Origin: Hyphomonadaceae bacterium
GTDB lineage: Bacteria > Pseudomonadota > Alphaproteobacteria > Caulobacterales > Hyphomonadaceae
Reading direction: 5' to 3'
Assembly (NCBI GenBank): GCA_016714495.1
Contig: JADKDU010000007.1
Coordinates: 59,438 to 123,437 of the forward strand
Length of the DNA: 64,000 nt
The notes under the pieces are model-generated. The model was not told where the DNA came from. It saw only the letters and a list, made by a program, of their open reading frames with translations, and searched no databases. Positions 29,477 to 33,586 of this stretch are shown here, one piece after another; position 1 is the first letter of the stretch, and each line of letters opens with the position of its first letter. The position numbers and the translations under genes are program-made.

Positions 29477-29863
29477 GTGGAGCGGCTCAATCCGATCTGG
29501 ATCAATGTCGCATTCGCACTGCTGTTCCCCGTGCTTGCCGTGCTGGTGATCGGGTCGGAACATGCCGGCGAGGTTTGTAGCGGCGTGATGGGCGGTTCGG
29601 ACGAGACGGCGCGGTTCTGGTACGAGATTCCGTGCAGCCCGGATATGCGCGACCGGGCGGGGCTTGGCGGATATGCCTGGGCCTATGTCGGCATGTTCGT
29701 GGCGACAGGAATCTATTCCGGCGTCCTGTTTCCCGCGATCACAGGCCTGACCGGCGTCATTCTGGAAAGGGCGGCGCCGCGCTGGACCAATCGGGTGGAC
29801 TGGATTGTAACAGCGGTTCTGGCGGTCATTCCGGTCGTGGCGCTGTTCATCGCTTTCGGTTAA
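29477..29863 (+). CDS. hypothetical membrane protein
   Basis: GTG start 12 nt after the SDR stop. Four hydrophobic segments. No family recognised. Confidence 0.45.
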
Positions 29864-29984: not shown

Positions 29985-31070
29985 ATGGCCCGCATCACGT
30001 TGCGTCAGTTGCTCGACCACGCCGCCGAGCACAGCTACGGGCTGCCCGCCTTCAACATCAACAACATGGAACAGGCGCTGGCCATCATGGAGGCCGCCGA
30101 GAAGGTCGACGCTCCGGTGATCATGCAGGCAAGCCGCGGCGCCCGCTCCTACGCCAACGACATCGTGCTGAAGCACATCATCGACGCTTGCGCCGAGATG
30201 TACCCCAACATCCCGATCTGCATGCACCAGGACCACGGCAACGGCCCGGCGACCTGCGCCACCGCGATCCAGTTCGGCTTCACCTCGGTGATGATGGATG
30301 GCTCGCTGAAGGAAGACGCGAAGACGCCGGCCGACTACGCCTATAACGTCGATGTCACCCGTCGCGTGACCGAGATGGCGCATGCGTGCGGCGTGTCAGT
30401 GGAAGGCGAGCTGGGCGTGCTGGGTTCGCTTGAGACGGGCATGGGCGAAGCCGAGGACGGCCATGGCGCCGAGGGCAAGCTGGACCACTCGCAGTTGCTG
30501 ACGGACCCGGACCAGGCGGTCGATTTCGTGCGCGAGACGCAGGTTGACGCGCTGGCGATCGCCATGGGCACCAGCCACGGCGCCTACAAGTTCACGCGCA
30601 AGCCCGACGGCGAAGTGCTGGCAATGAACGTGATCGAGGAAATTCACCGTCGCCTGCCGAACACGCACCTTGTGATGCATGGCTCGTCGTCGGTTCCCCA
30701 GGACCTGCAGGACGAGATCAACAAGTATGGCGGCAAGATGCCTCAAACCTGGGGCGTGCCAGTGGAAGAAATCCAGCGCGGCATCAAGCACGGCGTACGC
30801 AAGATCAACATCGACACCGACAACCGCATGGCGATCACGGGCGCGATCCGCAAAGTGTTCGCCGAAAAGCCGGGCGAGTTCGACCCGCGCAGCTATCTGA
30901 AGCCCGCCAAGGAAGCGATGCGCAAGGTCTGCATCCAGCGCTATCAGGAGTTCGGTTGCGAGGGCATGGCGAGCAAGATCAAGCCGGTGTCGCTGGCCGT
31001 GATGGCGAAGAAATACGCCGCCGGCGACCTCGCCCCGCGCATCGCCGTGACGGCGAAAGCGGCCGAGTAA
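29985..31070 (+). CDS. fba: class II fructose-bisphosphate aldolase
   Basis: [51 protein letters not shown]. Confidence 0.93.
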
Positions 31071-31321
31071 GCGTCCAGCATCGAAGACATTCACACGCTG
31101 TGAGCAGACCGCCCACAGGCTTGTGCTTTTTGGTTCGCTCCGGCGATCGCCTGCCGGCGGGATAATGGCGCCCGTTGATTAATCAGGAAAAACGTCCCAG
31201 CCCGCTTAACACGTGTTTATTGGGGCGCCTGATTCGCCTGCTGGTTTAATCCCATAGCGCTGTGGATAACCCTGTGGAGGATTTAGCCGGCCGAGAGAAC
31301 GCGCGGCTGGGGAATTCGGGG

Positions 31322-32569
31322 ATGGCAGACCAGGGATACAATCCGGGCGCTTATCCGCTTTTCAAAAGCGGACTTGGCGATGCGAGTTGGACAGGCAGGC
31401 AAAAGCGTTGCCTCGTTCTCGACCCGTCGCACGACGCCAACCCAGACGTGCGCAAGCATGCGGACATGCTGTGGCGACACGTGATCGAGCCGGCGGCGAT
31501 GATCGCGAATTACGCCGCCCGCCGGGCCGACCGGACGTATGAGAACACGCCGACCGACCAGCCGCTGATCGACGCCCTGTTGGACGATGACCTGATCATC
31601 GCCGTCCCATCCTTCGGCAATCCGCGCGTGTTCTACGAGACGGCGCTGGCGCAAGCGGCGGCGCGACCGTTGATCCTGATGGTCGAGGAAGGCCAGGATC
31701 TTGGCTTCGACCCACGTAACGCGGAGATCGTCACTTACAGGCTCGATGGGGAAAGCCTGCATAGCCCCACGAACGTTGTGCGGCTGCAGACCGTGATCCG
31801 TGAGGTCGAAGAGCGCGCGGGCCCCGGCTGCAACGGTTTCCGGCCAGGCGCCGTCGCCCTCAACGGCAGTGGCGCGGGCAGCATCCAGTTCGACCGCGGC
31901 GGCGGCGCCTCGCTTGATCGAAAGCTCGACATGATGCGCAAAGCGCGAGCACGCATCGACATCATGGGTATCTCCAGTCTGGCTCTGCCCACACATCCGG
32001 GCATGGCGGATGTGCTTCGAGCCTGCGTCGACTGCGGCGTGGAAATTCGTGTCCTCCAGAGCGCCCCGAACAATCCCGGCTTGATCTCGCTGATCGGCGC
32101 GCGACAAACGGATCGGCTCGGCGCTGTTAGCGCGCAGATAGCAGCAGCAGCCCAAGCCTGGCGCGACGCCGCCGAAGCTGCTGGGCCTGATCTGTCCCTC
32201 ACCGTTCGTCGCACGCGCACGTCGTTGCCGATGGCGAACATGTTGAGCACCGATCGTGCGGTGGTGGCGACGCCTTACCTGCGCAGTCGCGCCACAGCGG
32301 CAAGCCCGACCGTGTTCGCGACGGCAAGCGATCACTACCATCAGATCATGGGTGAGGAGTTCGGGATGCTCTGGGCCGAAGCCGCCACACTTTTCCGATT
32401 TGAGCCCCGCGCACGGCGCTTGCCGGAGGCCAAGATGGAACGCCTGACGCCTGGCGTACGCACGCCGCTTCTCAAGGTGCGCAGTGCTGCGAGCGCAGCT
32501 GCTCCGCTCTCAAAGCCCGTTCGCACGAAAAGCGAACGCGGCTTTGCGGTCATCCGCTCCATTCGCTAG
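31322..32569 (+). CDS. orphan two-domain protein: nucleoside-2-deoxyribosyltransferase/TIR-like N-domain plus HKD-less PLD-like (DUF5919-like) C-domain
   Basis: N-domain: CLVLDPSHD... and DDDLIIAVPSFGNPRVFYETALAQAAARPLILMVEEG, following the CFVIMPF / ADLVIADL-NPNVFYELG-A-GKPVI pattern. C-domain: ARIDIMGISSLAL, GVEIRVLQSAPNNPG, LSTDRAVVATPY. Start is ATG 31322 or GTG 31262. Confidence 0.6.
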   Translation: MADQGYNPGAYPLFKSGLGDASWTGRQKRCLVLDPSHDANPDVRKHADMLWRHVIEPAAMIANYAARRADRTYENTPTDQPLIDALLDDDLIIAVPSFGNPRVFYETALAQAAARPLILMVEEGQDLGFDPRNAEIVTYRLDGESLHSPTNVVRLQTVIREVEERAGPGCNGFRPGAVALNGSGAGSIQFDRGGGASLDRKLDMMRKARARIDIMGISSLALPTHPGMADVLRACVDCGVEIRVLQSAPNNPGLISLIGARQTDRLGAVSAQIAAAAQAWRDAAEAAGPDLSLTVRRTRTSLPMANMLSTDRAVVATPYLRSRATAASPTVFATASDHYHQIMGEEFGMLWAEAATLFRFEPRARRLPEAKMERLTPGVRTPLLKVRSAASAAAPLSKPVRTKSERGFAVIRSIR

Positions 32570-32653: not shown

Positions 32654-32902
32654 ATGATGCTCGAGATGCGCCCCAACTGCGAATGCTGCGATAAGGACCT
32701 CGATCCGACGGCGCGGGATGCGCGCATCTGTTCGTTCGAATGCACCTATTGCGCGGACTGCGCTGGGCAGACGCTGAAGGGCAAATGCCCGAACTGCGGC
32801 GGCGCGCTCGTCGAGCGGCCGGCGCGCGCAACCGACAAGTTGGGGAGATTTCCGGCATCGACCGTCCGCAAGGTGAAGCCCGCCGGGTGCGAGGCCGCTT
32901 GA
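32654..32902 (+). CDS. DUF1272 domain protein
   Basis: MLEMRPNCECCDKDLDP..ARICSFECTYCADCA...CPNCGGALVERP is the DUF1272 cysteine signature. Confidence 0.75.
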   Translation: MMLEMRPNCECCDKDLDPTARDARICSFECTYCADCAGQTLKGKCPNCGGALVERPARATDKLGRFPASTVRKVKPAGCEAA

Positions 32903-32932
32903 CGGCGTCGGCGGCAGGCGTACTCCACGGCC

Positions 32933-33586
32933 ATGCCGCGCCGTTGCCGTCTTTATCTCATCACGCCGCCGGAAGTTCCGGATGTAGCAGCGTTCACGCG
33001 GGAGCTTGAACAGGCGCTCGATGGCGGAGATGTCGCGTCTGTGCAGATCCGGTTGAAGTCGCGCGACGGCGTTGCGGCGCCGGACGGCCATATCCTCGAA
33101 CTGGGGCGCCAGATCATTGCGCGTGCGCAGGATCGCGGCGTTGCGGTGCTGATCAATGATCGGCCCGACCTCGCGGCCGGGCTGGGCGCCGATGGCGTTC
33201 ATATCGGCCAGCAGGACATGCCCTATGCGCGCGCGCGCAAGCTGGTGGGCGACGGGGCGATTGTGGGCGTTACCTGTCACGCCAGCCGGCATCTCGCGAT
33301 GGAGGCGGGCGAAGCTGGCGCAGACTATGTGGCGTTCGGCGCCTTCTATCCGACCCAGACCAAGGACCCGGCGACGCGCGCGGAACTGGAACTGCTGACC
33401 TGGTGGCAAGAGATGATGGAACTGCCCTGCGTCGCCATCGGCGGGATCACCACCGAGAATGCCAGGCCGCTGGTCGAGGCAGGGGCGGATTTCCTTGCGG
33501 TTTCGGCCGGGGTCTGGGGGGGGCCGGGCGGCCCAGGCGAAGCGGTTAAGGCTTTCAACACGCTGTTCGACGAATTGGCGACGTAA
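32933..33586 (+). CDS. thiE: thiamine-phosphate synthase
   Basis: [51 protein letters not shown]. Confidence 0.88.

What the first reader, a model, noticed from the sequence alone, without database searches (positions are those of the whole stretch)
31071..32569. Orphan fusion of a deoxyribosyltransferase/TIR-like domain with an HKD-less PLD-like domain, wedged between housekeeping genes
The roughly 415-aa product has two halves. The N-terminal half follows the Rossmannoid nucleoside-2-deoxyribosyltransferase-like pattern. CLVLDPSHD stands where CFVIMPF usually does, and DDDLIIAVPSFGNPRVFYETALAQAAARPLILMVEEG parallels ADLVIADL-NPNVFYELG-A-GKPVI. The C-terminal half (ARIDIMGISSLAL, GVEIRVLQSAPNNPG, LSTDRAVVATPY) looks like DUF5919/PLD-fold modules that lack the HKD catalytic motif. 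Domains of this kind are typical parts of nucleotide-centred conflict or signalling systems. I cannot assign this combination to a named system. The gene is monocistronic, sits between fba and DUF1272-thiE, and follows the most AT-rich spacer in the window. This is my best candidate for an undescribed single-gene sensor-effector.
Basis: partly seen in the sequence, partly recalled or inferred. Interest (0 to 1): 0.7.

Follow-up and report, generated by a model that had tools for sequence, protein, structure and literature searches.

The report
Domesticated immune-type nucleotide-binding protein gene
This gene encodes a two-part protein built from domains usually seen in bacterial anti-virus systems. 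In this group of uncultured Hyphomonadaceae it has stayed in one chromosomal spot, inside the sugar-metabolism gene cluster, for a long time, and its enzyme motif is eroding, so it now probably acts as a nucleotide-binding regulator of unknown role rather than a defence weapon.

Summary
The ORF is real: window 31322-32569, + strand, 415 aa. The N-terminal half is a nucleoside-2-deoxyribosyltransferase (NDT)/TIR-like Rossmannoid domain. This rests on AlphaFold2/Foldseek matches, a direct hit to phrog_3634 (E 9e-22), and an alignment of Glu106 with the DNPH1 nucleophile. The C-terminal half has a PLD fold with no HKD motif and is related to DUF5919.

- The fusion is not an orphan. At least 420 protein clusters share the two-domain architecture, and all are annotated "hypothetical".
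- The gene is not a mobile insert. Orthologues at 29-96% identity always sit at gap-pgk-aldolase-X-(DUF1272)-thiE, even where a class I aldolase replaces the class II enzyme.
- The upstream spacer is not the most AT-rich region of the window.

In this syntenic clade the nucleophile Glu is replaced several times independently (Q, S, A, L), and the SPIG loop is degenerate. The clade has also gained an N-terminal peptide motif, a disordered spacer and a C-terminal peptide motif. dN/dS is 0.10-0.30, so the gene is functional, but it evolves much faster than its neighbours.

Best reading: an immune-type enzyme domain exapted as a non-suicidal nucleotide-binding or regulatory protein. The function is untested. 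Interest is moderate.

The parts
31322..32569 (+). CDS of protein X (415 aa plus stop). The GTG at 31262 would give 435 aa but lies inside a DNA block that is conserved and non-coding in orthologous loci.
31337..31369 (+). N-terminal peptide motif, residues 6-16 (clade consensus Y-D-L-x-x-Y/W-P-L-F-R-S; here YNPGAYPLFKS). Predicted disordered. Specific to the syntenic clade.
31400..31816 (+). N-domain, residues 27-165: NDT/DrHyd/TIR-like Rossmannoid fold. It gives a direct hit to phrog_3634.
31589..31591 (+). Codon of Asp90, which aligns with DNPH1 Asp80. Conserved in both the syntenic clade and the broad family.
31637..31639 (+). Codon of Glu106, which aligns with the DNPH1 Glu104 nucleophile. 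It is present in the window protein and in 39/39 broad-family members. In the syntenic clade the column reads E32/Q6/S2/A2/L1.
31817..31885 (+). Inter-domain linker, residues 166-188. It has low pLDDT but carries a conserved F-R-P-G-x-x-A-L motif.
31886..32401 (+). C-domain, residues 189-360: PLD fold without HKD, DUF5919-like. R243, N251, R296, E346 and W351 are shared with the broad family. R211, Q246, W280 and R297 are specific to the syntenic clade.
32231..32278 (+). Beta-hairpin, residues 304-319 (MANMLSTD-RAVVATPY), in the place of the HxK(x)4D...GSxN motif. The His position is Met and the Lys position is Asn, so there is no catalytic HKD.
   Evidence: direct reading against the secondary structure
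32402..32515 (+). Disordered Ala/Arg/Pro/Leu-rich spacer, residues 361-398. Its length varies among orthologues from a few residues to well over 100.
32516..32566 (+). Conserved C-terminal tail, residues 399-415 (…T-K-S-E-R-G-F-A-V-I-R-S-I-R; clade consensus R-G-F/H-A-I-I-R-S-V). Specific to the clade and found nowhere else in the window.
31205..31282 (+). Upstream DNA block conserved among the closer orthologous loci (CTTAAC…TGAnTCGCC…GGTTTAATC…GCGCTGTGGATAWCC…TGGAG). It is promoter-like and includes a GANTC site at 31231-31235.
29985..31070 (+). Context: class II fructose-bisphosphate aldolase, the conserved upstream neighbour.
32654..33586 (+). Context: DUF1272 (32654-32902) and thiE (32933-33586), the conserved downstream neighbours.

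Best explanation
X is a soluble cytoplasmic two-domain protein. It descends from a widespread, uncharacterised family that fuses an NDT/TIR-like N-glycosidase domain to an HKD-less PLD-like (DUF5919-type) domain.

An ancestor of this lineage of uncultured Hyphomonadaceae and related alphaproteobacteria fixed the gene between the aldolase gene and thiE. It has been inherited vertically since then.

Within the clade the function no longer depends on the nucleophile Glu. Both domains most likely act as binding modules for a phosphate-bearing nucleotide-type ligand. The pocket residues that are retained are R44, H46, D90, Y105, F129 and D130 in the N-domain, and R243, N251 and R296 (plus clade-specific R211, Q246 and R297) in the C-domain.

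The newly gained N-terminal peptide (YDLxxYPLFRS) and C-terminal peptide (RGFAIIRSV), the latter tethered by a disordered spacer, probably couple ligand state to a partner protein or to autoinhibition.

Shown here: the folds, the homologies, the synteny, the erosion of the catalytic motif and purifying selection. Inferred: ligand binding, a regulatory role and partner docking.

The window copy still carries Glu106, so residual N-glycosidase activity is possible in this particular organism.
For: - Folds.
- Glu106 aligns with DNPH1 Glu104 and Asp90 with Asp80 (the DNPH1 sequence was verified against PDB chains).
- Glu106 is present in 39/39 broad-family members but reads E32/Q6/S2/A2/L1 in the syntenic clade. 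The substitutions are interleaved with Glu-retaining members on the NJ tree, which implies repeated loss.
- The SPIG loop is degenerate in every syntenic member except P0041. P0041 keeps the ancestral motifs and already has the N-terminal peptide, so it looks like an intermediate form.
- Synteny is conserved from 96% down to 29% identity and survives a swap from class II to class I aldolase.
- GC and GC3 match the neighbours.
- dN/dS is 0.10-0.30, against 0.02-0.09 for fba and 0.07-0.11 for thiE in the same genome pairs.
- The protein has no TM segment, and the window has no paralogue.
- There is no cyclase or other defence partner in any neighbourhood examined.
- The TIR-DrHyd-SLOG clade is known to include non-catalytic nucleotide sensors (PMC9503650, read).
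Against: - No ligand, partner or phenotype is known.
- The window protein and about 75% of orthologues keep Glu106, so catalysis may persist and the Glu-less lineages may be the exceptions.
- Fast evolution (dN 5-18 times that of fba) is also what an arms-race gene would show.
- Model coordinates and PAE were not available, so neither the clustering of conserved residues into pockets nor docking of the terminal peptides could be checked.
Confidence: 0.45

Rival explanations
1. X is an active single-gene anti-phage (abortive-infection) sensor-effector. The PLD-like domain senses a phage cue or a nucleotide signal and releases the NDT/TIR-like domain to hydrolyse NAD+ or nucleotides. The gene simply happens to be fixed in this lineage.
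For: - The N-domain family matches the PADLOC 'Effector/TIR' model in 137 of 150 relatives.
- It is the phage family phrog_3634.
- It occurs on 187 IMG/VR contigs.
- In streptococcal prophage Javan37 it sits in the lysogeny module, co-oriented with the repressor.
- It is fused to Macro, ThsA_Macro and TIR_2 domains in relatives.
- The window copy keeps Glu106 and Asp90.
- X evolves far faster than its neighbours.
- NDT-like retron effectors need their Glu for defence (bioRxiv 10.1101/2023.08.16.553469).
Against: - The position in a core glycolytic cluster is conserved down to 29% identity. There is no defence island and no mobile-element signature.
- The composition is native.
- Glu is lost repeatedly while the gene stays intact and under purifying selection.
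- The window protein and its orthologues do not hit any PADLOC model.
- X gives no tblastn match in plasmid or phage records.
Confidence: 0.2
2. X is a housekeeping nucleotide N-glycosidase in the manner of DNPH1, BcmB/MilB, PpnN or LOG. The PLD-like domain regulates it allosterically, and it trims a nucleotide pool in this lineage.
For: - The best structural matches are true N-glycosidases and transferases: NDT, BcmB and DNPH1, plus a viral 'CMP/hydroxymethyl-CMP hydrolase' at E 2e-8 and TM 0.72.
- Glu106 and Asp90 are aligned with the catalytic residues.
- The neighbourhood is stable and metabolic.
- The gene is under purifying selection.
Against: - A conserved enzyme would not tolerate nucleophile replacements (Q, S, A, L) and a degenerate substrate loop in syntenic orthologues.
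- The rate is 3-18 times that of neighbouring enzymes.
- The clade-specific terminal peptides and disordered spacer are unusual for a metabolic enzyme.
- There is no hit to any NCBIfam or Pfam enzyme model.
Confidence: 0.2
3. X is a decaying remnant of an old insertion with no current function.
For: The catalytic motifs are eroded and amino-acid divergence is high.
Against: - The ORFs are full-length in all loci.
- dN/dS is 0.10-0.30.
- There are 20 invariant and about 80 nearly invariant columns, plus newly gained conserved peptides.
- A conserved block lies upstream.
Confidence: 0.03

Closest known systems
Nucleoside 2-deoxyribosyltransferase / DNPH1 / BcmB N-glycosidases (PF05014; the DrHyd superfamily of the TIR-DrHyd-SLOG clade)
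   Same: The fold is the same. The 'Y-E' nucleophile position and the preceding Asp align with DNPH1 E104 and D80. 27 of 150 sequence relatives hit PF05014.
   Different: The window protein itself gives no PF05014 hit. The nucleophile is not conserved among orthologues, and the beta1 loop is remodelled from SPIG to D-P-S-H-D. It is fused to a PLD-like domain and flanked by disordered peptides.
PADLOC PDLC00733 'Effector (TIR)' and prophage family phrog_3634
   Same: The N-domain is the same module. X hits phrog_3634 directly at 9.4e-22, and relatives hit PDLC00733 with a best E of 3.9e-25.
   Different: Only positions ~250-380 of the 388-position PADLOC model are shared. X and its orthologues do not reach that model. 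No cyclase lies nearby. The phrog proteins carry helical tails rather than a PLD-like domain, and phrog_3634 itself has no known function.
Retron Ec86 (Eco1) NDT-like effector
   Same: It is an NDT-like domain used outside nucleoside salvage, with a catalytic Glu in the equivalent helix. It is a defence effector that depletes adenine derivatives (bioRxiv 10.1101/2023.08.16.553469).
   Different: It works with a reverse transcriptase and msDNA, and its Glu is required for defence. X has no retron partner, and its Glu is dispensable across orthologues.
HKD-less PLD-fold ligand/DNA-binding domains: TrmB/TrmBL2 C-terminal domain and Pfam DUF5919
   Same: These are the top Foldseek matches (TrmBL2 at E about 1e-6). 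Relatives hit DUF5919 with a best E of 2.7e-8. There is no catalytic HKD.
   Different: X has no HTH domain. It does not reach the DUF5919 model itself. The ligand is unknown. No paper in the searched library mentions DUF5919.
Broad ~330-aa NDT-like + PLD-like two-domain family (for example P0048; found in Acidobacteria and other phyla)
   Same: The architecture is the same and the proteins are 25-30% identical over both domains. This family is the likely evolutionary source of X.
   Different: The broad family keeps CFVISPIG and NPNVFYE(L) strictly (Glu in 39/39). It lacks the terminal peptides and the spacer. It sits in heterogeneous contexts: next to an integrase, between MoxR and DUF58, and near DUF4276.

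Membership tests
NDT/DrHyd superfamily (PF05014-like) | Three-layer Rossmannoid alpha/beta fold with a five-stranded parallel sheet | tested here: met
   AlphaFold2 N-domain model: pLDDT 83.8, pTM 0.81. The top Foldseek hits are NDT 8pqq/8pqt, BcmB 4jen and DNPH1 8rpt, with TM 0.47-0.66. A viral CMP hydrolase-like protein matches at E 2e-8 and TM 0.72.
NDT/DrHyd superfamily (PF05014-like) | Significant match to the family profile | tested here: inconclusive
   The window protein gives 0 Pfam hits at E<=10. 27 of 150 sequence relatives hit PF05014, best 2.8e-7. hhalign of the N-domain profile against DNPH1 gives Prob 75.8 and E 2.3e-5.
NDT/DrHyd superfamily (PF05014-like) | Nucleophile Glu, equivalent to LlNDT E98 and DNPH1 E104 | tested here: inconclusive
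   It is present in the window protein as E106. It is replaced by Q, S, A or L in 11 of 43 syntenic orthologues.
NDT/DrHyd superfamily (PF05014-like) | N-glycosidase or transferase activity | not testable with these tools
   This needs biochemistry.
CBASS-type TIR effector (PADLOC PDLC00733) | Match to the effector model | tested here: not met
   X and the orthologues P0009, P0033, P0039, P0040 and P0042 give no hit at E<=10. Only more distant relatives hit the model, and only over positions ~250-380 of 388.
CBASS-type TIR effector (PADLOC PDLC00733) | Adjacent CD-NTase cyclase | tested here: not met
   No cyclase appears in any of the neighbourhoods examined.
PLD superfamily (HKD phosphodiesterases) | PLD alpha/beta fold | tested here: met
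   Foldseek matches F13, TrmBL2, PLD, Nuc, Zucchini and NucT at E 4e-7 to 1e-3. The family profile matches Streptomyces PLD at E 0.006.
PLD superfamily (HKD phosphodiesterases) | HxK(x)4D catalytic motif | tested here: not met
   The equivalent hairpin is M304-A-N306-M-L-S-T-D311, with clade consensus L-A-S-A-L-I-T-D. Some broad-family members have HxQ/N(x)4D, but none has the Lys.
DUF5919 (PF19319) | Match to the family profile at the gathering score | tested here: inconclusive
   X gives no hit. P0048 scores 19.4 bits against a 23.5-bit cut-off. 10 of 150 relatives hit at E<=0.1, best 2.7e-8.
phrog_3634 (phage protein family, unknown function) | Match to the family profile | tested here: met
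   E 9.4e-22, with residues 27-160 matching profile positions 3-133 of 237. The C-terminal half of the profile is not matched, so membership is at the level of the domain only.
Anti-phage defence gene (generic) | Patchy distribution, a defence-island or mobile context, or atypical composition | tested here: not met
   The synteny is strict and deep. GC is 0.646 and GC3 is 0.75, like the neighbours. No integrase or other defence gene is adjacent.
TrmB-family regulators | N-terminal winged-HTH DNA-binding domain | tested here: not met
   No HTH hit appears in Pfam. The N-terminal domain is NDT-like.

The most novel reading that the evidence does not exclude
An immune-type NDT/TIR-like plus PLD-like protein was captured once by an ancestor of this alphaproteobacterial lineage. 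It was then converted from a nucleotide-degrading effector into a non-catalytic sensor of a nucleotide-derived signal. The sensor talks to host machinery through its newly evolved terminal peptides, and it may be under CcrM/GcrA-type cell-cycle control, given the conserved upstream GANTC site. As a corollary, the ~330-aa parent family would be a new stand-alone defence system in which an HKD-less PLD domain is the sensor.
Probability: 0.25. Interest if true: 0.7.

Novelty: new variant of a known kind. Interest (0 to 1): 0.45.

Why it matters
Immune domains such as TIR, NDT-like and PLD-like modules are usually studied as mobile, suicidal effectors. This locus offers a traceable series in sequence data. 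It runs from the canonical family, through an intermediate (P0041) that keeps the catalytic motifs and already carries the new N-terminal peptide, to derived forms that have lost the nucleophile. That series shows how such a module can become a fixed, vertically inherited host gene.

The work also flags two large unannotated families. One is the two-domain family of at least 420 clusters. The other is the phrog_3634 N-domain family, which is common in the lysogeny modules of prophages. Both are obvious candidates for defence screens. If the PLD-like DUF5919 domain proves to be a ligand sensor, that would assign a function to a Pfam DUF that the searched literature does not mention.

Tried and rejected
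- Direct profile searches of X against Pfam, NCBIfam and PADLOC gave no hits at E<=10.
- A PDB sequence search with the orthologue profile found nothing meaningful. The wider profile gave only a weak PLD match.
- Rfam found nothing in the window or in the 5' region.
- A candidate 5'UTR hairpin has only weak support: -4.7 kcal/mol and 2 covarying pairs.
- Hairpins after fba and after X fold no better than shuffled sequence, with z scores of -0.58 and 0.03. The terminator-like sites are within chance expectation. Transcript boundaries therefore remain open.
- A CtrA-box reading of TTAACACGTGTTTAT was rejected. It is one imperfect site and is not conserved in other loci.
- The 'most AT-rich spacer' claim was rejected.
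- Recent horizontal acquisition was rejected on composition and synteny.
- The pseudogene reading was rejected on dN/dS.
- tblastn of X against PLSDB plasmids and GenBank phages found no match.
- A search for the C-terminal tail motif elsewhere in the window, and for paralogues, found none.
Distribution counts are therefore lower bounds.
- hhalign of the narrow orthologue profile against DNPH1 was not significant. Only the broad profile was.
Full report
**1. What is in the sequence**

The + strand carries an ORF at 31262..32569. The ATG at 31322 gives 415 aa. It is preceded by GGGGAA at 31309-31314.

Nearly all orthologues begin at the equivalent Met. NCBI annotates the near-identical MAG proteins (MBP9235084.1, MBK8839928.1, 'hypothetical protein [Hyphomonadaceae bacterium]') as 415 aa. 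I therefore take the gene to be 31322-32569.

The flanking genes are as stated: class II fructose-bisphosphate aldolase, DUF1272 and thiE.

One claim is wrong. The 251-nt spacer has GC 0.586, and 288 of 2550 sliding windows are more AT-rich.

**2. Domain identity**

X itself gives no hit at E<=10 in Pfam, NCBIfam or PADLOC. A profile of its orthologues finds nothing in the PDB by sequence. Structure prediction and transitive searches settle the question.

*Overall model.* The full-length AlphaFold2 model has mean pLDDT 77.6.
- Two well-predicted domains span roughly residues 27-165 and 189-360.
- Residues 1-24, 168-186 and 371-398 are disordered.

*C-domain.* It matches PLD-fold proteins: vaccinia F13, TrmBL2/TrmB, Streptomyces PLD, Nuc, Zucchini and NucT, at E 4e-7 to 1e-3.
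- The beta-hairpin that carries HxK(x)4D...GSxN in true PLDs reads M304-A-N306-M-L-S-T-D311 / R-A-V-V-A-T-P-Y. The catalytic His and Lys are therefore absent.
- Some members of the wider family have HxQ/N(x)4D, but none has the Lys.

*N-domain.* Modelled on its own it gives pLDDT 83.8 and pTM 0.81.
- Its best PDB matches are the Chroococcidiopsis NDT, the BcmB CMP N-glycosidase and DNPH1. TIR-STING, SARM1 TIR and SpbK TIR follow.
- In the viral structure library the top hit is a 303-aa siphovirus 'CMP/hydroxymethyl CMP hydrolase' at E 2e-8 and TM 0.72.

*Sequence support.*
- X hits phrog_3634 directly (9.4e-22, residues 27-160) and phrog_10872 (8.6e-12). Both have unknown function.
- A full HMMER scan of 1.84 billion representatives gave 3879 relatives at E<=1e-3.
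- Among the best 150, the hits were as follows:

| Model | Relatives hitting (of 150) | Best E |
|---|---|---|
| PADLOC PDLC00733 'Effector/TIR' | 137 | 3.9e-25 |
| PF05014 (NDT) | 27 | 2.8e-7 |
| TIR_2 | 14 | 6.4e-4 |
| PLDc_2 | 11 | 7.4e-4 |
| DUF5919 | 10 | 2.7e-8 |

- The PDLC00733 matches cover only positions ~250-380 of that 388-position model.
- hhalign of the broad N-domain profile against human DNPH1 gives Prob 75.8 and E 2.3e-5. It places Glu106 on the DNPH1 nucleophile Glu104 and Asp90 on Asp80. The DNPH1 sequence was verified against PDB chains. The residue roles come from my own knowledge and from the PDB entry titles.

**3. Not an orphan**

About 40 of the top 150 representatives are ~330-aa proteins that align over both domains at 25-30% identity. 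A search seeded with one of them (P0048) returned 420 clusters at E<=1e-5. All are 'hypothetical', and they include MAGs of Acidobacteria/Pyrinomonadaceae.

The N-domain on its own is much more widespread.
- It is fused to Macro, ThsA_Macro, TIR_2 or periplasmic-binding-protein-like domains.
- It occurs on 187 IMG/VR contigs with variable helical tails.
- It occurs in 44 GenBank phages, mostly Streptococcus and Staphylococcus temperate phages, and on 53 plasmids.
- In phage Javan37 it lies in the lysogeny module, co-oriented with the repressor and the invertase. That is a typical site for prophage-borne defence genes. This last point is an inference.

The contexts of the two-domain family are heterogeneous: beside an rve integrase, between MoxR and DUF58, and near DUF4276/HTH genes. 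None has a CD-NTase nearby.

**4. The window gene belongs to a distinct, positionally fixed clade**

Only 39 clusters are close relatives (37-96% identity). All are full-length and come from uncultured Hyphomonadaceae or alphaproteobacterial MAGs.

In every locus with enough flank, the order is (gap-pgk-)aldolase - X - (GMC oxidoreductase in some) - (DUF1272) - thiE - IMPase. The same order holds for more distant members:
- P0042, 33% identity.
- P0045, 29% identity.
- P0041, 37% identity, from a marine sample.

In P0041 and P0045 the aldolase is class I (PF00274) instead of class II, so the position of X predates or survived that swap. X has GC 0.646 and GC3 0.75, like its neighbours.

X evolves much faster than its neighbours.

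| Gene | Identity across the same loci | dN/dS in the same genome pairs |
|---|---|---|
| X | 35-56% | 0.10-0.30 |
| fba | 86-96% | 0.02-0.09 |
| thiE | 70-87% | 0.07-0.11 |
| ABC transporter | 78-93% | not computed |

The dN of X is 5-18 times that of fba. X is clearly functional, but it is under weaker or shifting constraint.

**5. Erosion of the catalytic motif and gain of new peptides**

Comparing 39 broad-family proteins with 43 syntenic-clade proteins shows the following.
- The nucleophile Glu is 39/39 in the broad family. In the clade the column reads E32/Q6/S2/A2/L1.
- The beta1 loop 'SPIG' and several other family hallmarks (D70, G76, N102, P128, D133, R135) are lost in the clade.

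On an NJ tree the Glu-less members are interleaved with Glu-retaining ones, which implies several independent replacements. P0041 keeps the ancestral CFVISPIG and NPNVFYELAVAQ motifs and already carries the clade-specific N-terminal peptide.

The clade-specific gains are:
- an N-terminal motif, Y-D-L-x-x-Y/W-P-L-F-R-S;
- a disordered Ala/Pro-rich spacer that ranges from a few residues to well over 100;
- a C-terminal motif, R-G-F/H-A-I-I-R-S-V.

Residues shared by both groups are R44, H46, R68, Y105, F129, D130 and Y139 in the N-domain, and G216, R243, N251, R296, E346 and W351 in the C-domain. X has no TM segment, and the window has no paralogue.

**6. Interpretation**

The orthologues are syntenic, full-length and under purifying selection, yet they tolerate loss of the nucleophile. 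The function conserved across the clade therefore cannot be Glu-dependent N-glycosidic cleavage.

The polar and Arg-rich residues that are retained suggest that both domains still bind a phosphate-bearing, nucleotide-like ligand. The TIR-DrHyd-SLOG clade is known to contain non-catalytic sensors (PMC9503650). E-to-Q NDT mutants still bind substrate analogues, as the title of PDB entry 8pqq indicates. The new terminal peptides on disordered tethers look like docking or autoinhibitory elements.

I therefore favour an exapted nucleotide-binding or regulatory protein (confidence 0.45). The two main rivals each get about 0.2:
- An active defence effector. This is supported by the family's associations and by the fast evolution of X. 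It is opposed by the deep synteny and the loss of Glu.
- A housekeeping N-glycosidase. This is supported by the structural matches and by E106 in the window copy. It is opposed by the erosion of the catalytic motif and by the architecture.

A non-functional remnant is excluded by dN/dS.

**7. Regulation**

A DNA block at 31205-31282 is conserved among the closer orthologous loci. It includes a GANTC site at -91 to -97 in nine loci, GGTTTAATC, and GCGCTGTGGATAWCC. This suggests that X has its own promoter.

No Rfam element was found, and no significant hairpin or terminator either. Whether X is monocistronic remains open.

**8. Novelty and limits**

The domain families are known. The two-domain architecture and this domesticated clade are not described: the searched literature has 0 papers on DUF5919 and nothing relevant under PF05014.

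The limits are these.
- No coordinates or PAE were available for mapping pockets.
- No experiment bears on function.

Noticed in passing
window 31205-31282; L001, L009, L011, L026-L029 upstream of X: A promoter-like DNA block is conserved upstream of X. It contains a positionally conserved GANTC site (the CcrM methylation motif, with a variable N) at -91 to -97 in nine orthologous loci. In the window the site is at 31231-31235.
   Followed up: partly
L021 214-1101; L025 5755-6642 (compare window 29985-31070): In more distant relatives the aldolase upstream of X is class I (PF00274) rather than class II (PF01116). The rest of the gap-pgk-aldolase-X-thiE order is kept. This is a non-orthologous replacement in situ.
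   Followed up: partly
L001 7521-9029; L009 and L011 at the equivalent position: A 502-aa GMC oxidoreductase gene is inserted between X and DUF1272 in some orthologous loci but not in the window. DUF1272 itself is missing in L008/L014, L016, L021 and L025. The stretch downstream of X is therefore a variable spot.
   Followed up: no
L037-L116 (IMG/VR); L117 3992-4687 (Streptococcus phage Javan37): The canonical N-domain (CFxxxPIG … NPNVFYE) with variable helical tails is common on viral contigs (187 loci) and in temperate phages of Streptococcus, Staphylococcus and Enterococcus. In Javan37 it sits in the lysogeny module between cro and the repressor. It belongs to phrog_3634, which has no known function, and it looks like an untested prophage defence candidate.
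   Followed up: partly
L034/L035 6935-10500: A broad-family two-domain member (P0319, Pyrinomonadaceae) lies between a MoxR AAA+ ATPase gene and a DUF58 gene, which normally form an operon pair.
   Followed up: no
window 29477-29863: A 128-aa hydrophobic ORF between the SDR gene and fba has no Pfam hit. In L001 the same interval holds a 255-aa gene with a weak BPL_N hit instead.
   Followed up: no
plasmid hits H8, H10-H15 (Rhizobium): Rhizobium plasmid proteins that contain the N-domain are annotated 'TRAFs-binding domain-containing protein'. This is a further fusion partner of the module.
   Followed up: no
L008 6110-6424; L021 3368-3889; L023 8391-8768; L025 8918-9250: A small DUF4282 gene on the opposite strand directly follows thiE in several related loci but not in the window.
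   Followed up: no
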